Both the position numbers and the translations under genes were made by a program. A stretch of DNA of 35,822 bases from a virus: the UHGV virus genome UHGV-1355336. One strand, written 5' to 3'. Below are positions 1,765-32,241 of this stretch, piece after piece. Each line of letters starts with the position of its first letter. The stretch's first letter is position 1. Below the pieces are notes generated by a model, which saw only the letters and a list, made by a program, of their open reading frames with translations, ran no database searches and was not told where the DNA came from.

Positions 1765-4700
1765 ATGGGTAAAGGCAGCAGTAAGGGGCATACCCCGCGC
1801 GAAGCGAAGGACAACCTGAAATCCACGCAGTTGCTGAGTGTGATTGATGCCATCAGTGAAGGGCCGATTGAAGGTCCGGTGGATGGATTAAAAAGCGTGC
1901 TGCTGAACAGTACGCCGGTGCTGGACAGTGAGGGGAATACCAACATCGCCGGTGTCACGGTGGTGTTCCGGGCTGGTGAGCAGGAGCAGACTCCGCCGGA
2001 GGGATTTGAATCCTCCGGCTCCGAGACGGTGCTGGGTACGGAAGTGAAATACGACACGCCGATCACCCGCACCATCACGTCGGCAAACATCGACCGACTG
2101 CGCTTTACCTTCGGTGTGCAGGCACTGGTGGAAACCACCTCAAAGGGGGACCGGAATCCGTCGGAAGTTCGCCTGCTGGTTCAGATACAGCGTAATGGTG
2201 GCTGGGTGACGGAAAAAGACATCACCATTAAGGGCAAAACCACCTCGCAGTATCTGGCCTCGGTGGTGGTGGATAACCTGCCGCCGCGCCCGTTTAATAT
2301 CCGGATGCGCAGGATGACGCCGGACAGCACCACAGACCAGCTGCAGAACAAAACGCTCTGGTCGTCATACACCGAAATCATCGATGTGAAACAGTGCTAC
2401 CCGAACACGGCACTGGTCGGCGTGCAGGTGGACTCGGAGCAGTTCGGCAGCCAGCAGGTGAGCCGTAATTATCATCTTCGCGGGCGCATTCTGCAGGTGC
2501 CGTCGAACTATAACCCGCAGACGCGGCAATACAGTGGTATCTGGGACGGAACGTTAAAACCGGCATACAGCAACAACATGGCCTGGTGTCTGTGGGATAT
2601 GCTGACCCATCCGCGCTACGGCATGGGGAAACGTCTTGGTGCGGCGGATGTGGACAAATGGGCGCTGTATGTCATCGGCCAGCATTGCGATCAGTCGGTG
2701 CCGGACGGTTTTGGCGGCACGGAGCCGCGCATCACCTGTAATGCGTACCTGACCACACAGCGCAAGGCGTGGGATGTGCTCAGTGATTTCTGCTCGGCGA
2801 TGCGCTGTATGCCGGTATGGAACGGGCAGACGCTGACGTTCGTGCAGGACCGACCGTCGGATAAGGTGTGGACCTATAACCGCAGTAATGTGGTGATGCC
2901 GGATGATGGTGCGCCGTTCCGCTACAGCTTCAGCGCCCTGAAGGACCGCCATAATGCCGTTGAGGTGAACTGGATTGACCCGAATAACGGCTGGGAGACG
3001 GCGACAGAGCTTGTGGAGGACACGCAGGCCATTGCCCGTTACGGTCGTAACGTCACGAAGATGGATGCTTTTGGCTGTACCAGCCGGGGGCAGGCACACC
3101 GCGCCGGGCTGTGGCTGATTAAAACAGAACTGCTGGAAACGCAGACCGTGGACTTCAGCGTGGGTGCCGAAGGGCTTCGCCATGTACCGGGCGATGTCAT
3201 TGAAATCTGCGATGATGACTATGCCGGTATCCGCACCGGCGGGCGCGTGCTGGCGGTAAACAGCCAGACCCGGACGCTGACGCTCGACCGTGAAATCACG
3301 CTGCCATCTTCCGGCACCACGCTGATAAGCCTGGTTGACGGGCAGGGGAGTCCGGTCAGCGTGGAGGTTCAGTCCGTCACCGACGGCGTGAAGGTGAAAG
3401 TGAGCCGTGTTCCTGACGGCGTTGCTGAATACAGCGTATGGGGGCTGAAGCTGCCGACGTTGCGCCAGCGCCTGTTCCGCTGCGTGAGTATCCGTGAGAA
3501 CGACGACGGCACGTATGCCATCACCGCCGTGCAGCATGTACCGGAAAAAGAGGCCATCGTGGATAACGGGGCGCACTTTGACGGCGACCAGAGCGGCACG
3601 GTAAATGGTGTCACGCCGCCAGCGGTGCAGCACCTGACCGCAGAAGTCACCGCAGACAGCGGGGAATACCAGGTGCTGGCCCGCTGGGACACGCCGAAGG
3701 TGGTGAAGGGCGTGAGCTTCCTGCTTCGCCTGACCGTGGCAGCGGATGACGGCCGTGAGCGGCTGGTCAGCACGGCCCGGACGACGGAAACCACTTACCG
3801 CTTCACACAACTGGCGCTGGGGAACTACAGGCTGACAGTCCGGGCAGTAAATGCGTGGGGGCAGCAGGGCGATCCGGCGTCGGTATCGTTCCGGATTGCC
3901 GCACCGGCAGCGCCGTCGCGGATTGAGCTGACGCCGGGCTATTTTCAGATAACCGCCACGCCGCATCTTGCGGTTTATGACCCGACGGTACAGTTTGAGT
4001 TCTGGTTCTCGGAAAAACGGATTGCGGATATCAGGCAGGTTGAAACCACAGCCCGCTATCTTGGCACGGCGCTGTACTGGATAGCCGCCAGTATCAATAT
4101 CAAACCGGGCCATGATTATTATTTTTACGTTCGCAGTGTGAACACCGTTGGCAAATCGGCATTCGTGGAGGCTGTCGGTCAGCCGAGTGATGATGCATCA
4201 GGCTATCTGGATTTTTTCAAAGGCGAGATAGGGAAAACCCATCTGGCTCAGGAGCTGTGGACGCAGATTGATAACGGTCAGCTTGCGCCTGACCTGGCTG
4301 AAATCAGGACGTCCATTACGGATGTCAGCAATGAAATCACGCAGACCGTCAATAAGAAACTGGAAGACCAGAGTGCTGCAATTCAGCAGATACAGAAGGT
4401 TCAGGTTGATACAAATAATAACCTGAACAGCATGTGGGCTGTGAAGCTGCAGCAGATGCAGGACGGACGCCTTTATATCGCGGGTATTGGTGCCGGTATT
4501 GAGAACACCCCTGACGGCATGCAGAGTCAGGTGCTGCTGGCGGCGGACAGGATTGCGATGGTTAATCCTGCGAATGGCAACACAAAACCGATGTTTGTTG
4601 GTCAGGGCGATCAGATATTCATGAACGACGTGTTCCTGAAACGCCTGACGGCTCCCACCATTACCAGCGGTGGAAATCCGCCGGCATTTTCCCTGACACC

Positions 4701-5247
4701 AGACGGAAAGCTGACCGCTAAAAATGCGGATATCAGCGGTAATGTGAATGCAAATTCAGGGACGCTCAACAATGTCACGATTAATGAAAACTGTCAGATT
4801 AAGGGGAAACTGTCAGCCAATCAGATTGAAGGCGATATTGTCAAAACGGTCAGCAAGTCTTTCCCCCGCACGAACAGTTATGCCAGTGGCACCATCACGG
4901 TAAGAATCAGTGATGATCAGAAATTTGACCGGCAGGTCATGATACCGCCAGTGTTATTCCGCGGTGGTAAGCATGAGAATTTCAACAGTAATAACCAACA
5001 GTCATACTGGTATTCAACCTGCCGGTTAAGAGTGACCCGCAATGGTCAGGAGATTTTTAATCAGTCCACGACGGATGCTCAGGGCGTATTTTCCTCAGTT
5101 ATAGATATGCCTGCCGGACAGGGGACGCTGACACTGACATTCACCGTATCTTCATCAGGAGCGAATAACTGGACACCAACAACCAGTATCAGCGATCTGC
5201 TGGTTGTGGTGATGAAAAAATCCACAGCAGGTATCAGTATCAGCTGA
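1765..5247 (+). CDS. J: Tail tip host-specificity protein J (central tail fibre)
   Basis: 1160 aa; N-terminus [54 protein letters not shown] is lambda-J-like; fibronectin-like central repeats; C-terminal ~250 aa diverge from recalled lambda J. Confidence 0.9.
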
Positions 5248-19148: not shown

Positions 19149-19781
19149 CGAGAATTATGTTCGTTCTAAATCATGGTTATTGTATTACAGACACTTGACT
19201 ACTGTTGAAACATCAGATTCTAGTGCTTCAATTTGTGCTCTATTAGCTTGGGTCGCCATACCATAGATAGTGTAACTCTTATGCTGCAGCCTACTTAAAG
19301 GGCATCCCTCATGGTTTATTATTGCTGCAAGAGTATTACCATCTTTGACATTTTGAACTCTCTCGAAAGTAGCCACATTTGTGAACAGATGAGGATGTGT
19401 ATTTAACAGGTCATCCGTGATTCTTTTGATCTCTTCTGCATGTGATTTGAATGCTTTTGCTGCATCACTTTCATTAGTTCTTGAGCGGTTTTGTACGAAA
19501 AGGTGTAGTTCAGGTAGTTCGATAAGGTTTTGCTTTGCTTCTTTGTTGAAATCTAAGAACATTTCATCTTGTTCTGACTTGTCAATAGACACTCCATAAA
19601 TAAGTTTAACAAGGTTTTTTATTCCGCGAATTGATGCAGCATCGGCAGTGCAAGGGATAATTATTCTATTTGCCGCGACTACTCCCAATTCTGTGTAGCT
19701 GGCAAAACTTGGATTACAATCAATAAAAAATGTTTTTGCTCTGTCAGAAATGTTTTTATCGGCTTCAAAAGATGCTATTAG

Positions 19782-20976
<1,195 letters not shown>

Positions 20977-21703
20977 TTAGATCTACCAGCAAAGATCGGC
21001 TTTTCTTCCATGCTTCTTTTACTGGGGATGAGCCAATGTGAGATATTAAGCGTGAACAGATATCAAGATCGACATCACCAGGAAGAATATATAAGTTCTC
21101 TGGCATTTTTGTATTAACATCATGGGCTCGTACAAAGTAAGAAGATTCATTTCCTAAACGAGACAAAGGAGATTTGCTAAAACGCTCCTTGATATAACCT
21201 GCGATTGTAACATTTCTGTCTCGCAATTTATTTAGATTTTCTTCCCCGGTACCATTGCCACCAAGAATAATTTCTGAAACGTTTGATTGAGGGCATGAGT
21301 CAATAACCACAACATCTTGATCCGGATGAGATATAGCAAACTCAACGGCAAGATTATATGTAAGAAAAGTTTTTCCTACACCACCTTTGTTGTTCCATAC
21401 TAAATATTTTGTATTGGTGGAAATCATATCTGCTACCCCATCTGTCGCTTCAGTACGTTCATTAATCATTATCGTATCCTGTTGTATAGAATTGTCTATT
21501 ATTTATGTTTTATTTTGGTTTTTTTTGTGTTAGTAACGCACCCAAAGATAACATATGGTCTTTATCTTTTCTTACTTAGGGTAACAGCTCAGTGTTAATC
21601 CATTTTTATGGACCAATGTGCCAAATAAAATTTGTATAAAGATTTTCTATCCTTATCTTTTATCATCTGTGCTCGTTTGCTTTAACGATTGCTAGATGCC
21701 TAA

Positions 21704-22444
21704 TTAAAGTCGATTATATTTAATCGACTCATGAATCAGTGCCTTACCCATAACATAAAGCTGATCTTGCGACTTCTCATCAATGTACCATTTCTCATAG
21801 GCGGGGTTATCCGAAAGAACAGCTAGTTTGTTGCCTTGCATTTGTAGACGTTTAACATGGAAAGTCTTACCGTAAACGAAAGAGTAAACTCCATCAGTCT
21901 GGAAGTGGCGAACGGAAATGTCGACAAACAATCGATCCCCGGAAACAAGAGTTGGGGACATACTATCTCCATTTACCGTCATAACTTTTATATCATTCTG
22001 AGAACGGTTTCCGAAAAGAGAACGGGCATGTTCAGTTGTGAACTCAATGGCGTAGAGCACATCAACATAGTCTGAAAGCATATAGGTCCCAGGTCCTGCG
22101 CTAACGCTAAGATCCAAAACTTCTATCCTGTATACATCGGGCTTTGTTGGATTGGGGATGCTTGCCATTTCCTTACATTCCTCTCTATCTCCAACACCAT
22201 ATTCTAGATATGAAGCTGATACTCCAAGAGCCAACGCAAGTTTACTCATGACAGAGACACGTGGCTTCGCTGCGCCGATTGTGTATCGACGAGCCATTTC
22301 ATATGTAACGCCCACAAGACTTTTGAGTTGAGTGACAGAGATTCCTTTGATTGTCATCAATTCGTTTAGTCTCTTGGCGAAATCTGGATACTTCTGTTCT
22401 TCTACCATAGGTAGAAGATTACTCACATCACACGCGCTAGTCAT
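21704..22444 (-). CDS. CI-like prophage repressor (HTH plus S24 LexA-type autopeptidase domain); start codon uncertain (22444 or 22408)
   Basis: C-terminal VNGDSMSPTL...K motif pattern of S24 peptidases; N-terminal HTH; divergent to a cro-like gene; no SD before candidate ATGs. Confidence 0.75.
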   Translation of the reverse strand: MTSACDVSNLLPMVEEQKYPDFAKRLNELMTIKGISVTQLKSLVGVTYEMARRYTIGAAKPRVSVMSKLALALGVSASYLEYGVGDREECKEMASIPNPTKPDVYRIEVLDLSVSAGPGTYMLSDYVDVLYAIEFTTEHARSLFGNRSQNDIKVMTVNGDSMSPTLVSGDRLFVDISVRHFQTDGVYSFVYGKTFHVKRLQMQGNKLAVLSDNPAYEKWYIDEKSQDQLYVMGKALIHESIKYNRL

Positions 22445-22446
22445 TT

Positions 22447-22484
22447 CTATTTTAAGTAGTTGCAATTTGCTATTTTAAGTAGCA
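22447..22484. promoter_or_regulatory. Right operator region: two copies of CTATTTTAAGTAG spaced 23 bp; second sits in 17-mer TGCTATTTTAAGTAGCA
   Basis: Direct reading of the cI-cro intergenic region; 17-mer matches the OL candidate at 14 of 17 positions. Confidence 0.5.
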
Positions 22485-22514
22485 TCATCCCTCTGAATTT
22501 CAGAGGAGAAAGGT

Positions 22515-22778
22515 ATGTCATCTCAAAACTACACAGAGAAAGCAGTAAAGGCTGCGGGAAAGTCTTTATCTGAAGTAGCCCGTCGCTTTGGTTTTAAGTC
22601 CACTCAATCCGTCGCCAATTGGGTAATTAACAATCAAGTCCCGTCAGAACGGGTTTTACAACTTTGTGAGTTGGGAAACTGGTCCGTGACCCCTCATGAA
22701 CTGCGTCCTGATATTTACCCCAATCCAAATGATGGATTACCTGAGTGCTATTCAAAAGTTAGCGGTTCAACTGCGTAA
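22515..22778 (+). CDS. Cro-like / YdaS-family HTH regulator
   Basis: 87 aa, SD GAGGAG upstream; HTH (LSEVARRFGFKSTQSVANWV) and C-terminal ...HELRPDIYPNPN typical of YdaS-type proteins. Confidence 0.65.
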   Translation: MSSQNYTEKAVKAAGKSLSEVARRFGFKSTQSVANWVINNQVPSERVLQLCELGNWSVTPHELRPDIYPNPNDGLPECYSKVSGSTA

Positions 22779-22806
22779 ACGTAACCACAGAAACGAGGAA
22801 TGAACC

Positions 22807-23391
22807 GTGGGTAAAGAACCTGAATGGAAAGTTGATAAGCAACCAGCATGGCTGGTGGCAGCAATACGAAGAACGATTGCTGATTTACCTCATGGCTATG
22901 AGGAAGCAGCGGAAATTCTTGGTTTGTATAAATCTGATGATATCACCCCAGCGAAAGATCAATTGCATAACAGACTGCGTAGCGGTGGGGATCAAATTTT
23001 TCCACTTGAGTGGGCCATGGTTTTACAGGATGCCAGTGGTACCAGGCATGTAACGGATGCGATAGCGCGTCGTAGTAATGGGGTGTTTGTGCCGCTGGTG
23101 AACATTGATGACATTGACAATGGTGACATTAATCAGCGGCTGATGGAGTCAATAGAATGGATTGGCAAGCATTCCCAGTACTTACGCAAGGCAACTGCTG
23201 ATGGAGTTATTGACCAGGCTGAGCGTGAGCAAATCGAAGAGAACAGCTACCAAGTAATGGCGAAGTGGCAGGAGCATTTAACACTGTTATTTCGTGTTTT
23301 TTGTGCGCCGGAAAAGAGTAACGCCCGCGAGTGTGCAGCTCCGGGCGTCGTGGCGTCGATTGCTTCTGGTTGTGGAGAAACTAACGCATGA
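22807..23391 (+). CDS. Early regulatory protein (YdaT/CII-like), function uncertain
   Basis: 194 aa, GTG start with AGGA upstream; position directly after the cro-like gene. Confidence 0.45.
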
Positions 23392-23726
23392 ACAGTTTAA
23401 CAACACACTACCGTCGCTCGCAACTGATTGCGCTTCCTGTACCGGGTGGAAAAGCGAAGGTGGAGTATTGCTATGCGGTGAATGTACCAGGTGACAGGGA
23501 AATTGTAACCCACAGCTTTGCAGAGTGGGCTGTGGGTGATTTCAACCGGCAGAAGGAGACAGTCCTTTGCAACAAGTTAACCGCTGGTTCAAAGATCACT
23601 ACGGAGTGCCCGTCAGAGTCATTCGTTGGGAACCGGAAACACAACGGGTTATCTACCTCCGCGAAGGCTATGAGCATGAATGCTTCAGCCCGCTCGAACA
23701 GTTTCGTCGTAAATTCAGGGAAATAG
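23388..23726 (+). CDS. Hypothetical protein; 3' half may be out of frame (see findings)
   Basis: N-terminal 60 aa protein-like; C-terminal part low-complexity, while an overlapping frame encodes a better-looking 59-aa sequence ending at ~23749. Confidence 0.3.
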
Positions 23727-23735
23727 AGGTCGGTC

Positions 23736-24683
23736 ATGAGCACTAAATTAACCGGCTATGTATGGGATGGTTGCGCTGCGTCAGGCATGAAGTTATCCAG
23801 CGTGGCAATTATGGCCCGCCTGGCTGATTTCAGTAATGACGAAGGTGTGTGCTGGCCATCAATTGAAACCATTGCCCGCCAGATTGGCGCGGGGATGAGC
23901 ACCGTCAGAACGGCTATCGCACGGCTGGAAGCAGAAGGCTGGTTAACGCGTAAGGCGCGTCGCCAGGGTAACCGCAATGCGTCGAATGTTTATCAGCTTA
24001 ACGTTGCGAAGCTTCAGGCAGCGGCATTTTCTCAACTGTCAGATTCTGACCCGTCAAAATCTGACGCATCAAAATCTGACCAGTCAAAATTTGATGCGTC
24101 GAAATCTGGCAAAAAAGCGGGTTTTCACCCGTCAGAATCTGGCGGGGATCCGTCAGTAAAATCAAAACATGATCCGTCAGATAAAAAAACTTCTCGTCCG
24201 GACGCTTCGCAACCGGACACGCAGACGGCTGAACAGGAGTTTTTAACTCGCCATCCTGATGCGGTTGTATTCAGCCCTAAAAAGCGCCAGTGGGGAACGC
24301 AGGATGATTTGACCTGCGCACAGTGGCTCTGGAAAAAAATCATCGCCCTGTACGAGCAGGCCGCCGAATGTGACGGCGAGGTGGTTCGTCCCAAAGAACC
24401 GAACTGGACAGCATGGGCAAACGAAATTCGCCTGATGTGTGTGCAGGATGGTCGTACTCACAAACAAATCTGCGAGATGTACAGCCGCGTCAGCCGCGAT
24501 CCGTTCTGGTGCCGTAACGTGCTCAGCCCGTCGAAGCTGCGGGAAAAATGGGATGAGCTTTCCCTGCGCTTATCGCCGTCCGTCAGCACGTACACCGAAA
24601 AACGCGAAGACCCGTACTTCAAAGCCAGTTACGACAACGTGGACTACAGCCAGATCCCGGCAGGATTCAGGGGGGGATCATGA
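23736..24683 (+). CDS. Replication initiator (lambda O-like) with internal origin iterons
   Basis: 315 aa; N-terminal winged-helix-like region; central DPSKSDASKSDQSKFDASKSG encoded by tandem 15-bp repeats; position after cro/cII-type genes. Confidence 0.65.
   Translation: MSTKLTGYVWDGCAASGMKLSSVAIMARLADFSNDEGVCWPSIETIARQIGAGMSTVRTAIARLEAEGWLTRKARRQGNRNASNVYQLNVAKLQAAAFSQLSDSDPSKSDASKSDQSKFDASKSGKKAGFHPSESGGDPSVKSKHDPSDKKTSRPDASQPDTQTAEQEFLTRHPDAVVFSPKKRQWGTQDDLTCAQWLWKKIIALYEQAAECDGEVVRPKEPNWTAWANEIRLMCVQDGRTHKQICEMYSRVSRDPFWCRNVLSPSKLREKWDELSLRLSPSVSTYTEKREDPYFKASYDNVDYSQIPAGFRGGS
24039..24188. repeat. Iteron array (candidate ori): ~5 tandem 15-bp units of consensus CCGTCAAAATCTGAC plus 3 spaced copies and an A-rich tract
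   Basis: Repeats read directly: ccgtcaaaatctgac / gcatcaaaatctgac / cagtcaaaatttgat / gcgtcgaaatctggc / ccgtcagaatctggc ... followed by gataaaaaaac. Confidence 0.65.
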
Positions 24684-25168
24684 GTCTTTTGAATGACGTT
24701 CAGAAATTCATTGAAGCCCATCCGGGGTGTACTTCCGGAGACATTGCGGATGCTTTTGCAGGTTACTCACGACAGCGCGTTCTGCAGTCAGCAAGCAAGT
24801 TACGTCAGAGTGGGCGTGTGGCTCACCGTTGTGAAGGGGATACACGCAGACATTTCCCGCGGCTGACTGAGATACCGCAGGAGCCGGAACCGCAACCAGT
24901 TCGTGAATCCAGACCTGTGCGCAATTTCTATGTCGGCACTAACGATCCCCGGGTGATTTTGTGCCTGACCCGCCAAGCGGAAGAACTGGAGTCCAGGGGC
25001 TTATACCGTCGTGCTGCAACGGTGTGGATGGCGGCATTCCGTGAAAGCCACTCCCAGCAAGAGCGAAACAATTTTCTTGCGCGTCGTGAGCGGTGTTTAC
25101 GGAAAAGCAGCAAGCGCGCTGTATCGGGTGAAGAGTGGTATCTGTCAGGGAATTACGTGGGGGCTTAA
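24680..25168 (+). CDS. Hypothetical nin-region protein
   Basis: 162 aa, start overlaps the O-like stop (ATGA). Confidence 0.45.
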   Translation: MSLLNDVQKFIEAHPGCTSGDIADAFAGYSRQRVLQSASKLRQSGRVAHRCEGDTRRHFPRLTEIPQEPEPQPVRESRPVRNFYVGTNDPRVILCLTRQAEELESRGLYRRAATVWMAAFRESHSQQERNNFLARRERCLRKSSKRAVSGEEWYLSGNYVGA

Positions 25169-25494
25169 TGACGACGTTAACTCAATGCCAGCAGCAGGTG
25201 CTGGATATGCTGATTTCTTACCAGAAAGAACGTGGCTTCCCGCCAACCAATCAGGAGGTGGCTACCATGCTGGGATACCGTTCAGTGAATGCAGCGGTGG
25301 AGCATCTTCGCGCACTGGAGAAAAAAGGCGTCATCACGATAAAGCGTGGCGTGGCCCGGGGCATCACGCTTCATACCGCGGTGAAGGACGACGACAGCGA
25401 GGTGGCCGGGATTATCCGCGCACTGCTTGCTGGTGAGGAAAACGCCAGGCTGCGTGCAGCCCACTGGTTACATGAGAGGGGGCTGAAAGTATGA
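25168..25494 (+). CDS. LexA N-terminal DNA-binding-domain homologue lacking the peptidase domain
   Basis: MTTLTQCQQQVLDMLISYQKERGFPPTNQEVATMLGYRSVNAAVEHLRALEKKGVI parallels LexA [56 protein letters not shown]; only ~109 aa. Confidence 0.6.
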   Translation: MTTLTQCQQQVLDMLISYQKERGFPPTNQEVATMLGYRSVNAAVEHLRALEKKGVITIKRGVARGITLHTAVKDDDSEVAGIIRALLAGEENARLRAAHWLHERGLKV

Positions 25495-25880
25495 AGCTGA
25501 TTCTGCCTTTTCCACCCAGCGTGAACACCTACTGGCGACACCCCAACAAAGGGGCATTTGCTGGTAAGAGCCTGATAAGCGCGGCGGGGCGAAAATTCCA
25601 GAGTGCGGCGTGCACAGCAATAGTTGAGCAGTTACGTCGTCTGCCGAAACCAACGTCGGCACCTGCTTCAGTGGAGATCGTGTTGTTTCCTCCGGATAAC
25701 CGGATCCGCGATCTGGACAACTATAACAAGGCGCTGTTTGACGCCCTGACCCACGCGGGTGTGTGGGAAGACGACAGCCAGGTGAAAAGAATGCTGGTGG
25801 AGTGGGGACCGGTTATCCCGGAAGGGAAGGTCGAGATCACTATCAGTAAGTACGAGAAAACGGCGGGTGCAGCCGCCTGA
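25491..25880 (+). CDS. rusA: RusA-family Holliday junction resolvase
   Basis: MKLILPFPPSVNTYWRHPNKG...DLDNYNKALFDALTHAGVWEDDSQV is the RusA signature. Confidence 0.85.
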   Translation: MKLILPFPPSVNTYWRHPNKGAFAGKSLISAAGRKFQSAACTAIVEQLRRLPKPTSAPASVEIVLFPPDNRIRDLDNYNKALFDALTHAGVWEDDSQVKRMLVEWGPVIPEGKVEITISKYEKTAGAAA

Positions 25881-25899
25881 TCAAGAGGAGAAACGAAGT

Positions 25900-26897
25900 A
25901 TGAATAATCTGATGGTCATTGATGGTATTGAAGTTCGTCGTGATGCTTATGGGCGTTACAGCCTGAACGATCTGCATCGNNNNNNNNNNNNNNNNNNNNN
26001 NNNNNNNNNNNNNNNNNNNNNNNNNNNNNNNNNNNNNNNNNNNNNNNNNNNNNNNNNNNNNNNNNNNNNNNNNNNNNNNGTATTGAAGTTCGTCGTGATG
26101 CTTATGGGCGTTACAGCCTGAACGATCTGCATCGGGCTGCTGTTGTATTTGGTGCAAATGCCAGAACTAAGGAGCCGGGAAAGTTTCTTTCCAGCCAACA
26201 GATTACTGAGCTGGTTCAGGAATTGATCGATACCCAAAATTTGGGTGTCGGTTCATTCAATGAAACTACCCAAAATTTGGGTAGTAAACCAGTAAGTAAA
26301 ATAGAAGGGCGGAATGGAGGAACGTATGTCTGCAAGGAACTGGTGTATGCCTATGCAATGTGGATCAGCCCGTCATTCCATCTGAAGGTGATCCGTACTT
26401 TCGATATGGTAACCAGCACACCGGAAAAATTATCCGGGCAGGCTGCTGACAAGATGCAGGCTGGCGTGATCCTGCTGGACTTTATGCGCCGGGAATTAAA
26501 CCTGTCTAAGTCATCAGTGCTTGGAGCCTGTCAGAAGCTTCAGGAGGCTGTTGGCTTACCGAATCTGGCACCGCGCTATGCCATTGATGCTCCTGCTGAC
26601 GCGCCTGATGGCTCAAGTCGCCCCACGCTGTCGCTGAGTGCACTGCTGAAACAGTATGGTATCCGCCTGACGGCTAATCAGGCATATCACCAGATGGTGA
26701 AGCTGGGGATCGTTGAACAACGCGAACGATACAGCCGTACCGCGATTAACAACATCAAAAAATTCTGGTCGCTGACGGCGAAAGGCTGCATGTTCGGCAA
26801 GAACATCACCAGTCCTGCAAATCCGCGCGAGACGCAGCCGCATTTCTTCGAATCCCGATTCCCTGAGCTGTTAAAGCTGCTCGATACCGTTCATTGA
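25900..26897 (+). CDS. KilA-N domain protein (antirepressor/Roi-like), interrupted by an assembly gap
   Basis: MNNLMVIDGIEVRRDAYGRYSLNDLHRAA... (KilA-N-like); frame continues past the N-run to 26897; flanks of the gap duplicate the same ~55 nt. Confidence 0.55.
25980..26079. other. Assembly gap (100 N) flanked by duplicated sequence
   Basis: Run of N; GTATTGAAGTTCGTCGTGATGCTTATGGGCGTTACAGCCTGAACGATCTGCATCG occurs both just before and just after the gap. Confidence 0.95.
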
Positions 26898-32025: not shown

Positions 32026-32241
32026 ATGTATCAGATGGAAAAAATATCAACAGGCATTGCCTACGGCACCTCCGCAGGCAGTGCTGGCTACTGGTTTTTA
32101 CAATGGCTTGATCAGGTTAGTCCGTCTCAGTGGGCTGCGATTGGTGTACTGGGAAGTCTGGTTCTGGGCTTTCTGACTTATCTGACGAATCTGTACTTCA
32201 AAATCAGAGAAGACAGAAGAAAGGCTGCGAGAGGAGAGTAA
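32026..32241 (+). CDS. S: Class II pinholin (phage 21 S-type) with dual-start motif
   Basis: [71 protein letters not shown] (71 aa), two TMDs, Met1/Met4 starts; matches recalled S21. Confidence 0.9.

What the first reader, a model, noticed from the sequence alone, without database searches (positions are those of the whole stretch)
24039..24188. Iteron-type origin embedded in the O-like gene
At least five contiguous 15-bp repeats (consensus about CCGTCAAAATCTGAC) plus spaced copies and an adjacent A-rich tract lie inside the initiator ORF, giving the SKSDA-type peptide repeats. This is the classic lambdoid ori-in-O arrangement and marks this element's replication specificity.
Basis: partly seen in the sequence, partly recalled or inferred. 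Interest (0 to 1): 0.45.

Follow-up and report, generated by a model that had tools for sequence, protein, structure and literature searches.

The report
Replication origin inside phage initiator gene
A cluster of short palindromic DNA repeats inside this prophage's replication-initiator gene is almost certainly the phage's origin of replication, laid out as in phage lambda but with a different DNA-binding domain, different repeats and no lambda-P-type partner gene. It is an ordinary kind of element that is very common in enterobacteria and goes unannotated.

Summary
Five abutting 15-bp units, each a 13-bp imperfect palindrome GTCAAAaTCTGAC, lie at 24038-24110. A sixth isolated copy is at 24131-24143. 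Two A-rich 24-bp GATC repeats follow at 24147-24194. All lie inside a 315-aa ORF (23736-24683).

The ORF is 99% identical in nucleotides to the Shigella phage SfIV gp41 gene. Its C-domain is homologous to the lambda O C-domain (E 2e-25). Its N-domain is an HTH_36 winged helix, not the lambda O N-domain. The repeats encode a predicted disordered linker between the two domains, at the same relative position as the annotated iterons of phage 21.

Selection acts on the DNA rather than the peptide:
- Third-codon identity is 0.82 in the origin core against 0.55 in the N-domain, across 75 relatives.
- Ser codons are 86% TCA/TCT in the linker against 26% elsewhere in the same genes.
- One lineage keeps the isolated repeat in another reading frame.

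The repeats travel with the N-domain through swaps of the C-domain. Some relatives have lambda P or DnaC-like loaders directly downstream; this window has none.

Verdict: an iteron-type origin, a new member of a known kind, never tested experimentally. Unwinding at the A-rich repeats and the route of helicase loading are inferred. Interest is low to moderate.

The parts
23736..24683 (+). O-like replication initiator gene (315 aa): winged-helix N-domain (aa 1-99), disordered linker (aa 103-160), lambda-O-type C-domain (aa 162-280)
   Evidence: ORF. Pfam HTH_36 4e-11 over aa 23-70. PHROG 391 'replication initiation O-like' 1e-134. 99.2% nt identity to SfIV gp41. BLASTP 2e-25 to the O protein of phage 21 over aa 70-277. 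AlphaFold model: pLDDT below 50 at 103-131 and 133-160, about 90 at 190-280.
24038..24110 (.). Array of five abutting iterons. These are 13-bp imperfect palindromes at 24038, 24053, 24068, 24083 and 24098, separated by 2-bp spacers, with a 15-bp period.
   Evidence: Copy number varies from 3 to 11 in relatives, in steps of 15 bp.
24111..24128 (.). Spacer AAAAAAGCGGGTTTTCAC. TTTTCAC (24122-24128) is an inverted half-site abutting iteron 6. On the minus strand the spacer reads as a weak terminator-like hairpin.
   Evidence: (inverted repeats I1/I2). TTTT(C/G)ACCC is nearly invariant in 75 relatives.
24131..24143 (.). Isolated iteron GTCAGAATCTGGC, the most conserved copy in the family
   Evidence: Column identities are mostly 0.9 or higher across 75 relatives. 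In L005 and L078 it is kept at 11/11 in a different reading frame.
24147..24194 (.). Two direct 24-bp A-rich repeats, each starting GATCCGTCAG (24147-24170 and 24171-24194). This is the candidate DNA-unwinding element. Each repeat carries one Dam site and one iteron half-site.
   Evidence: Repeat D5. 67% A+T, 44% A. Least stable 40-mer within 22500-25500. Second GATC at exactly +24 in 67 of 76 relatives. Two or three copies in relatives.
24181..24215 (.). Mosaic junction. From ORF nt 446 onward the sequence is 97% identical to phage mEp460_4F5, which has an unrelated N-domain and its own repeats.
   Evidence: hit H15, query 446-948.
24680..25168 (+). 162-aa protein with a PerC domain. Its start overlaps the initiator stop (ATGA). 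It occupies the position that P holds in lambda. Not shown to belong to the origin.
   Evidence: PerC-type proteins follow the initiator in 18 of 76 relatives.

Best explanation
The region 24036-24194 is the vegetative replication origin of an SfIV/SfII-type lambdoid prophage. It is embedded in the disordered-linker coding part of the phage's own initiator gene.

Proposed mechanism:
1. Dimers of the initiator's N-terminal winged-helix domain bind the 13-bp palindromes. There are five abutting sites and one isolated site flanked by an inverted half-site. This step is inferred from architecture and co-inheritance.
2. The resulting nucleoprotein complex destabilises the adjacent A-rich pair of 24-bp GATC repeats. 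Each repeat carries one more half-site. This step is inferred from position, conservation and duplex stability.
3. The lambda-O-type C-domain then brings in the host replicative helicase. Because no P, DnaC or helicase gene is present, this must be done directly or through a host factor, or perhaps through the neighbouring PerC-like protein. This step is speculative.

The peptide SKSD(A/P) repeats are a by-product. The linker tolerates whatever the DNA sites encode.
For: Shown by computation:
1. The repeats are real, clustered and dyad-symmetric.
2. The ORF is an initiator homologue in the O position. Its repeats lie at the same relative position as the curated gpO iterons of phage 21.
3. The same layout (array, spacer, isolated site, then GATC/A-rich repeats) is present in 76 of the 87 homologue ORFs examined (80 genome loci, 6 phage loci and the window) from many genera of Enterobacterales. 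The motif TCARAATCTGA occurs 517 times in 79 kb of these ORFs, against about 60 times in the remaining ~810 kb scanned (both strands).
4. The constraint is on the DNA:
   - Third-codon identity is 0.82 in the origin core against 0.55 in the N-domain (Mann-Whitney p 3e-8), and the codon-position periodicity disappears.
   - Ser codons are TCA/TCT in 86% of linker codons against 26% elsewhere. Lys is AAA in 98% against 64%.
   - In L005 and L078 the isolated site is intact but read in another frame (TRQNLT in place of HPSESG).
5. The repeats travel with the N-domain while at least three C-domain types are exchanged. A phage sharing the C-domain at 97% nt identity but with an unrelated N-domain has none of these sites and has its own 23-bp repeats.
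6. Relatives with this N-domain/repeat cassette are followed by lambda P (2) or DnaC/IstB-like loaders (6), which is the context of a genuine replication module.
7. The repeat-coding segment is predicted disordered, between a MarR/ArsR-like winged helix and a confident helical C-domain.
Against: - There is no experimental evidence for binding, unwinding or origin activity, for this element or for any close relative, in the papers I could search.
- The A/T-rich element is weak: 67% A+T, and only about the 92nd percentile of 40-bp duplex instability over the whole window.
- No helicase loader is encoded, although lambda O's C-domain is known to act through P.
- Sites spaced 15 bp centre to centre leave little room for neighbouring dimers, so not all sites need be occupied at once.
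- The relatives are phylogenetically related, so the conservation statistics are not independent samples.
Confidence: 0.8

Rival explanations
1. The repeats are only a slippage-generated, low-complexity Ser/Lys/Asp linker of the protein, with no cis-acting DNA role.
For: The segment is predicted disordered. Copy number changes in in-frame 15-bp (5-codon) steps among near-identical genes. All copies in the window are in one frame.
Against: Codon choice is fixed: Ser is TCA/TCT in 86% of linker codons against 26% elsewhere, and Lys is AAA in 98%. Third positions are conserved far above the neighbouring folded domain. Each unit is a palindrome, which a peptide repeat does not require. The isolated site is preserved out of frame in L005 and L078.
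Confidence: 0.04
2. The sites are bound by the ORF's own product, but for autoregulation, a transcriptional roadblock or copy-number handcuffing. Initiation itself occurs elsewhere in the genome.
For: Iteron-binding initiators of plasmids also autoregulate and handcuff (general knowledge; reviews listed). The A/T-rich element here is weak.
Against: The layout matches lambda ori position for position, with sites followed by an A-rich stretch between the two domains. The A-rich GATC repeats are conserved at the DNA level together with the sites. No other repeat cluster of this motif exists in the window.
Confidence: 0.1
3. The array is a partition (centromere-like) site for the ParA-like ATPase system encoded in the early-left region.
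For: A ParA/AAA_31-like gene is present, although split by an IS. Centromeres are also arrays of short repeats.
Against: The array lies 2.6 kb from the par-like gene and inside the initiator gene. It is co-inherited with the initiator's N-domain across the relatives examined, whose adjacent downstream genes are methyltransferases, PerC-like proteins or helicase loaders. No ParB-like partner was identified among the ORFs scanned.
Confidence: 0.02

Closest known systems
Phage lambda / phage 21 ori-lambda inside gene O (O-P module)
   Same: - Origin inside the initiator gene of the early-right operon.
- Several dyad-symmetric initiator sites followed by an A-rich stretch.
- Sites encoded in the linker between a DNA-binding N-domain and a C-domain.
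- The C-domain is homologous (E 2e-25).
- Same relative position: ORF nt 303-408 here, 349-435 in phage 21.
- Extra iterons lengthen the protein, as in Stx phages (PMC7466680).
   Different: - The N-domain is Pfam HTH_36, not the lambda O N-domain.
- Sites are 13-bp GTCARAATCTGAC at a strict 15-bp period and abutting. In phage 21 the sites are 18-19 bp at 20-24-bp spacing.
- There is one extra isolated site.
- The A-rich part is two 24-bp GATC repeats at only 67% A+T, against 73% in phage 21.
- No P gene.
Other mosaic lambdoid initiators with their own repeats (mEp460_4F5 'primosomal protein I', SfV orf39)
   Same: Same gene position. The C-terminal part is the same or exchangeable (97% nt identity with mEp460_4F5 from ORF nt 446). 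Each carries its own repeat set immediately 3' of the N-domain coding part.
   Different: The N-domain is unrelated (mEp460_4F5) or distantly related (SfV), and the repeat sequences are different (23-bp CATCGGGTCAAAGTGACCTGATG units; GGTAGTGCAGGAGATTCAC units). None of them has the TCARAATCTGA motif in the linker.
Iteron-type plasmid origins (winged-helix Rep proteins; host DnaB/DnaC recruited without a plasmid loader)
   Same: Winged-helix initiator, directly repeated binding sites next to an A/T-rich unwinding element, and no element-encoded helicase loader (reviews listed).
   Different: The sites here are palindromes that suggest dimer binding. They lie inside the initiator's coding sequence. 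No DnaA box at 1 mismatch or fewer lies inside the element. No significant sequence match to plasmid Rep families (Pfam RP-C only E 0.005, below its cut-off).

Membership tests
Lambdoid 'ori inside the initiator gene' arrangement | Initiator gene in the early-right operon downstream of cro/cII-type genes | tested here: met
   cI-like (S24 peptidase + HTH) 21704-22465 on the minus strand. Then on the plus strand: YdaS/Cro-like, CII/YmfL-like, DUF4222 and the initiator. Same order in SfIV.
Lambdoid 'ori inside the initiator gene' arrangement | Four or more repeated, internally dyad-symmetric sites in the middle of the gene | tested here: met
   Six good sites and one degenerate site at ORF nt 303-438, with dyad matches of 3-6 out of 6.
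Lambdoid 'ori inside the initiator gene' arrangement | A/T-rich unwinding region directly 3' of the sites | tested here: inconclusive
   24147-24194 is 67% A+T and A-rich on the top strand. It contains the least stable 40-mer within 3 kb but is not extreme for the window (92nd percentile).
Lambdoid 'ori inside the initiator gene' arrangement | The sites are under selection as DNA and co-inherited with the DNA-binding domain | tested here: met
   (DNA-level constraint). (co-inheritance through C-domain swaps).
Lambdoid 'ori inside the initiator gene' arrangement | Initiator binds the sites; the fragment supports replication | not testable with these tools
   Needs EMSA or footprinting and a plasmid replication assay. 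No report found.
Lambda O protein family | Lambda-O-type N-terminal iteron-binding domain (Pfam Phage_rep_O) | tested here: not met
   Pfam gives HTH_36 (4e-11) and generic winged-helix families, with no Phage_rep_O hit. BLASTP against the phage 21 O protein aligns the N-domain only from aa 70, with no real similarity.
Lambda O protein family | Lambda-O-type C-terminal domain | tested here: met
   tblastn 35% identity over aa 131-277 to lambda and many lambdoid O genes. BLASTP E 2e-25.
Lambda O-P replication module | P-type (or DnaC-type) helicase loader gene immediately downstream | tested here: not met
   The downstream genes are PerC-like, LexA-DNA-binding-domain-like, RusA, KilA-N, DUF968/HNH and Q. 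Only 8 of 76 relatives have lambda P or an IstB/DnaC-like gene there.
Iteron plasmid Rep initiators | Sequence or fold membership in the RepA/RepE/pi winged-helix Rep families | tested here: not met
   Pfam RP-C E 0.0047, below its cut-off. PDB sequence search gives only MarR-type hits at E 0.003. The Foldseek top hits are generic MarR/ArsR winged helices, none at E 0.001 or below.

The most novel reading that the evidence does not exclude
This widespread initiator/origin cassette may work in an 'initiator-only' mode whose firing is gated by adenine methylation.

- The origin core keeps two GATC sites exactly 24 bp apart in 67 of 76 relatives.
- In 29 of 76 relatives the gene immediately downstream of the initiator is an adenine methyltransferase, from three unrelated families (Dam PF05869, MT-A70, D12).
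- Most members, including this window, carry no helicase loader even when the C-domain is of the lambda-O type that normally works through P.

If so, the lambda-O-type C-domain would have a P-independent route to the host helicase. That route could be direct, or could go through the translationally coupled PerC-like protein.
Probability: 0.15. Interest if true: 0.55.

Novelty: new member of a known kind. Interest (0 to 1): 0.3.

Why it matters
- The cassette (N-domain plus origin) is present at 95% nt identity or more in 1,577 of 5,426 complete E. coli genomes, and in prophages of many enterobacterial genera.
- Genome pipelines label the gene only 'helix-turn-helix domain-containing protein', and sometimes 'GntR/ArsR regulator'. 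The origin itself is never annotated.
- Recognising the origin gives a concrete, testable ori for SfIV/SfII-type serotype-converting Shigella phages and related Stx-phage replication regions.
- It explains the odd SKSD peptide repeats.
- It provides a clean example of a cis-acting site dictating codon choice inside a gene.
- It also raises a defined question: how does a lambda-O-type C-domain function without P?

Tried and rejected
- Rfam scan of 21500-26000: nothing. The repeats are not a known RNA element.
- Promoter scan: no promoter-like site in or next to the repeats. One weak minus-strand terminator-like hairpin lies in the spacer. I judge it incidental, because only the TTTT(C/G)ACCC part is conserved, and that part reads as an inverted half-site.
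- DnaA boxes: none at 1 mismatch or fewer inside 24036-24194. The Proteus-type relatives have TGATCCACA in their A-rich repeats, but the window does not, so DnaA dependence is not supported here.
- Fold search of the model against the PDB returned only generic MarR/ArsR-type winged helices, and no match to the C-domain. Sequence search of the PDB was likewise uninformative.
- Literature searches for yfdO, SfIV/SfII origin, lambdoid iterons, 'initiator-solo' and prophage iterons found no description of this origin. The Eru typing papers on Stx phages do not mention iterons.
- A strongly A/T-rich unwinding element like lambda's was looked for and not found.
- A partition-site reading was considered because of the ParA-like gene, and rejected on context.

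Full report
**1. What is in the sequence**

The finding lies inside a 315-aa ORF, 23736-24683 on the + strand. Tandem Repeats Finder reports a period-15 array at 24045-24108 (4.3 copies; score 79, or 93 as period 30). The repeat finder places 4-5 copies in register at 15-bp spacing and a further copy 33 bp on.

Read directly, each unit is a 13-bp imperfect palindrome separated from the next by 2 bp:

| Start | Sequence | Note |
|---|---|---|
| 24038 | GTCAGATTCTGAC | perfect dyad |
| 24053 | GTCAAAATCTGAC | |
| 24068 | ATCAAAATCTGAC | |
| 24083 | GTCAAAATTTGAT | |
| 24098 | GTCGAAATCTGGC | |
| 24131 | GTCAGAATCTGGC | isolated copy |

The isolated copy follows the spacer AAAAAAGCGGGTTTTCAC, whose last seven bases are an inverted half-site. 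After it come two direct 24-bp repeats, GATCCGTCAGTAAAATCAAAACAT (24147-24170) and GATCCGTCAGATAAAAAAACTTCT (24171-24194). Each has a Dam site and a GTCAG half-site.

The consensus with up to 3 mismatches matches 26 times in the window, against 11.0 +/- 3.6 in shuffles (0 of 100 shuffles reach 26). All six array sites have 2 mismatches or fewer, against two such sites in the remaining 35.7 kb.

The 'A-rich tract' is real but modest. It is 67% A+T with 44% A on the top strand, and GC falls only to 43-47%. The stretch 24155-24194 is the least stable 40-bp duplex within 22500-25500, but only about the 92nd percentile for the whole window.

**2. The gene and its setting**

The window is an SfIV/SfII-type lambdoid phage genome. 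The ORF is 99.2% identical in nucleotides to Shigella phage SfIV gp41, which is annotated 'replication protein' or 'primosomal protein'.

- Upstream lie a cI-type repressor (minus strand), a YdaS/Cro-like gene, a CII/YmfL-like gene and a DUF4222 gene.
- Downstream lie a PerC-domain protein whose ATG overlaps the stop codon, a LexA-DNA-binding-domain protein, RusA, KilA-N, DUF968/HNH and Q.
- No P, DnaC or helicase gene was found among the early-region ORFs scanned.

The protein matches PHROG 391 'replication initiation O-like' (1e-134). Its N-terminal part is Pfam HTH_36 (4e-11) with no lambda O N-domain hit. Its C-terminal part is homologous to the C-domain of lambda-type O proteins: 35% identity in tblastn, and BLASTP E 2e-25 against the O protein of phage 21, with the shared motifs WGT..DLT.A.W, NW..WAN.IRLM and NVLSP.KLR.KW.

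An AlphaFold model built on 46 homologues gives three parts:
- a winged helix at aa 1-99;
- a segment with pLDDT below 50 at aa 103-160;
- a confident helical domain at about aa 162-280.

The low-confidence segment is exactly what the iterons and A-rich repeats encode (codons 101-153). Foldseek finds only generic MarR/ArsR-type winged helices for the N-domain. Members of those families typically bind palindromic sites as dimers (general knowledge).

**3. Comparison with lambda**

In the curated record of phage 21, whose O gene the record itself equates with lambda O, the four gpO-binding iterons lie at ORF nt 349-435. They are followed by a stretch that is 73% A+T. Here the sites lie at ORF nt 303-408 and the A-rich repeats at 412-459. 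[quoted passage not shown]

The differences are:
- the DNA-binding domain;
- the site sequence;
- strict 15-bp abutting spacing, against 20-24 bp in phage 21;
- the extra isolated site;
- the weaker A/T-rich part;
- the missing P gene.

**4. Is the DNA, rather than the peptide, under selection?**

Using an alignment of the N-domain (A1) I fetched 80 loci from one-genome-per-species contigs, with 58-100% N-domain identity. The hosts include Escherichia, Citrobacter, Enterobacter, Klebsiella, Kosakonia, Buttiauxella, Yersinia, Pantoea, Erwinia, Rahnella, Providencia, Proteus and Tatumella. I also fetched 80 viral contigs with an identical N-domain and six phage loci.

In all, 87 homologue ORFs were examined (80 genome loci, 6 phage loci and the window). 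Of these, 76 show the full order of array, ~20-bp spacer ending TTTT(C/G)AC, isolated site, GGGGATCC, then two or three 24-bp A-rich GATC repeats. Several others, such as L013, keep it in variant form.

- **Motif enrichment.** TCARAATCTGA at 9/11 or better occurs 517 times in 79 kb of these ORFs, against about 60 times in the other ~810 kb scanned (both strands). There are 3-11 copies per gene, and the dominant spacing is 15 bp.
- **Third-codon conservation.** Across 75 non-redundant sequences, third-codon identity is 0.82 in the origin core (48% of sites at 0.9 or higher). It is 0.55 in the wHTH domain of the same genes (4% of sites at 0.9 or higher). Mann-Whitney p is 3e-8. The usual excess of first and second positions over third disappears.
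- **Codon choice.** Ser codons in the linker are TCA or TCT in 86% of cases, against 26% elsewhere in the same ORFs. Lys is AAA in 98% against 64%.
- **Frame change.** In the L005/L078 lineage the isolated site is intact (11/11) but read in another frame, giving TRQNLT or TLQNLT in place of (H/D)PSESG.

These results exclude a purely peptide-level explanation. The sequences are related by descent, so the statistics are not independent samples. However, both compartments come from the same genes, so the comparison is fair.

**5. Do the sites belong to the N-domain?**

The C-terminal half is exchanged freely. There are lambda-O-type, DnaD/'Phg_2220_C'-like and YPKR-type C-domains behind the same N-domain and repeats.

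The converse also holds. Phage mEp460_4F5 shares the window's C-domain at 97% nt identity from ORF nt 446, directly after the second A-rich repeat. It has an unrelated N-domain, none of these sites, and its own 23-bp repeats plus 12-bp A-rich repeats at the same place. SfV orf39 again has its own repeats.

The N-domain and the origin thus form one cassette. That is what is expected of an initiator domain and its binding sites.

**6. Replication context in relatives**

The gene immediately downstream of the initiator in 76 relatives is as follows:

| Downstream gene | Number of 76 |
|---|---|
| Adenine methyltransferase (Dam PF05869 22, MT-A70 5, D12 2) | 29 |
| PerC-type protein | 18 |
| IstB/DnaC-like ATPase | 6 |
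| Lambda P | 2 |

The presence of canonical helicase loaders behind some members confirms that this protein family occupies the initiator slot. Their absence from most members, including the window, means helicase recruitment must use host factors. SfIV carries the same module and was isolated and characterised as a phage (PMC3851460). That paper assigns orf41-45 to the 'replication module' but does not describe an origin.

**7. Mechanism, with status of each step**

- **Shown.** The element is a clustered, dyad-symmetric, DNA-constrained repeat set. It is co-inherited with a winged-helix initiator domain, in the lambda ori position.
- **Inferred.** Initiator dimers bind the 13-bp palindromes, and the complex melts the adjacent A-rich GATC repeats. 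The 15-bp spacing is about 1.4 helical turns, which puts neighbouring sites on nearly opposite faces. The complex therefore need not resemble the wrapped lambda O-some, and not all sites need be filled at once.
- **Speculative.** How DnaB is loaded without P, and whether the two conserved GATC sites make firing sensitive to Dam methylation. The second GATC lies at exactly +24 in 67 of 76 relatives.

**8. Rivals**

- A mere low-complexity linker is excluded by section 4.
- A regulatory or handcuffing-only role for the sites cannot be excluded without experiments. It is less likely given the conserved A-rich partner element and the correspondence with lambda.
- A partition site for the IS-disrupted ParA-like gene is unlikely on context.

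**9. Novelty**

The kind of element is classical. This particular N-domain/iteron type appears undescribed in the literature I could search. It is not annotated as an origin in any record examined. Yet it is present in 1,577 of 5,426 complete E. coli genomes, where the gene is named only 'helix-turn-helix domain-containing protein'.

I rate it a new member of a known kind, of low to moderate interest. The most interesting open point is P-independent action of a lambda-O-type C-domain and a possible link to methylation.

Noticed in passing
window 19185-21469: A DDE transposase gene (DDE_Tnp_1 + DUF772; ORF 19850-20842, + strand) lies between the two halves of a ParA/AAA_31-like ATPase gene on the minus strand. 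20930-21469 is the N-terminal part and 19185-19796 the C-terminal part. An IS appears to have split the gene.
   Followed up: partly
window about 25950-26110: A run of N or masked bases (X in all ORF translations) lies between RusA (25491-25880) and the KilA-N ORF (26223-26897).
   Followed up: no
window 23388-23746: The SfIV record annotates a 112-aa hypothetical gene at the position corresponding to 23388-23726 (gp40). A 59-aa ORF in another frame (23567-23746) is a full-length DUF4222 / PHROG 1343 match (6e-19; 9e-35). RefSeq E. coli genomes annotate the DUF4222 gene there. The 112-aa call is probably wrong in its 3' half.
   Followed up: partly
window 24680-25168: A 162-aa protein with a PerC domain (aa 98-150) and a weak N-terminal match to a MarR-type family (PHROG 1687, E 1e-4). 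Its ATG overlaps the initiator stop (ATGA), in the position lambda gives to P. PerC-type proteins follow the initiator in 18 of 76 relatives. Some phage records name it YfdN-like.
   Followed up: partly
related loci L002-L004, L010, L013, L055, L169, L170 and others: An adenine methyltransferase of one of three unrelated families (Dam PF05869, MT-A70, D12 class) lies immediately downstream of the initiator in 29 of 76 relatives. In mEp460_4F5 and SfV the methylase follows the PerC-like gene instead. The origin core carries two conserved GATC sites 24 bp apart. The window, like SfIV, lacks the methylase.
   Followed up: partly
L077, L079, L080, L083 (Proteus, Pectobacterium): In these relatives the 24-bp A-rich repeat is GATCCACAAGTAAATTCAAAACAT, present three times. 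It contains TGATCCACA, one mismatch from the DnaA-box consensus TTATCCACA. The window's version (GATCCGTCAG) does not.
   Followed up: no
E. coli genomes NZ_CP026361.1 and NZ_CP152465.1 (4.64-4.65 Mb), and L061: Only the first 234 nt of the initiator gene are present, and a terminase large-subunit gene is annotated under the same match. This looks like a truncated remnant of the cassette in a defective prophage.
   Followed up: no
E. coli O157:H7 TR01, NZ_CP033605.1 2151458-2151527: Only the isolated iteron plus GATC repeats (query nt 396-465) match, at 98.6%, inside another 'helix-turn-helix domain-containing protein' gene. The origin core seems to be shared between otherwise diverged initiator genes.
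   Followed up: no
window 4773-4816 and 32172-32198: Two other short tandem repeats: period 19, TGTCAGATTAAGGGAAAAC, inside the 1160-aa ORF 1765-5247; and period 9, TCTGACTTA. Both contain GTCAGA/TCTGAC-like words resembling iteron half-sites. This is probably coincidence.
   Followed up: no
window 24118-24131, minus strand: A terminator-like hairpin, CGGGTGAAAACCCG followed by CTTTTTTGCC, lies in the spacer between the iteron array and the isolated iteron. Only the TTTTCACCC part is conserved in relatives.
   Followed up: partly
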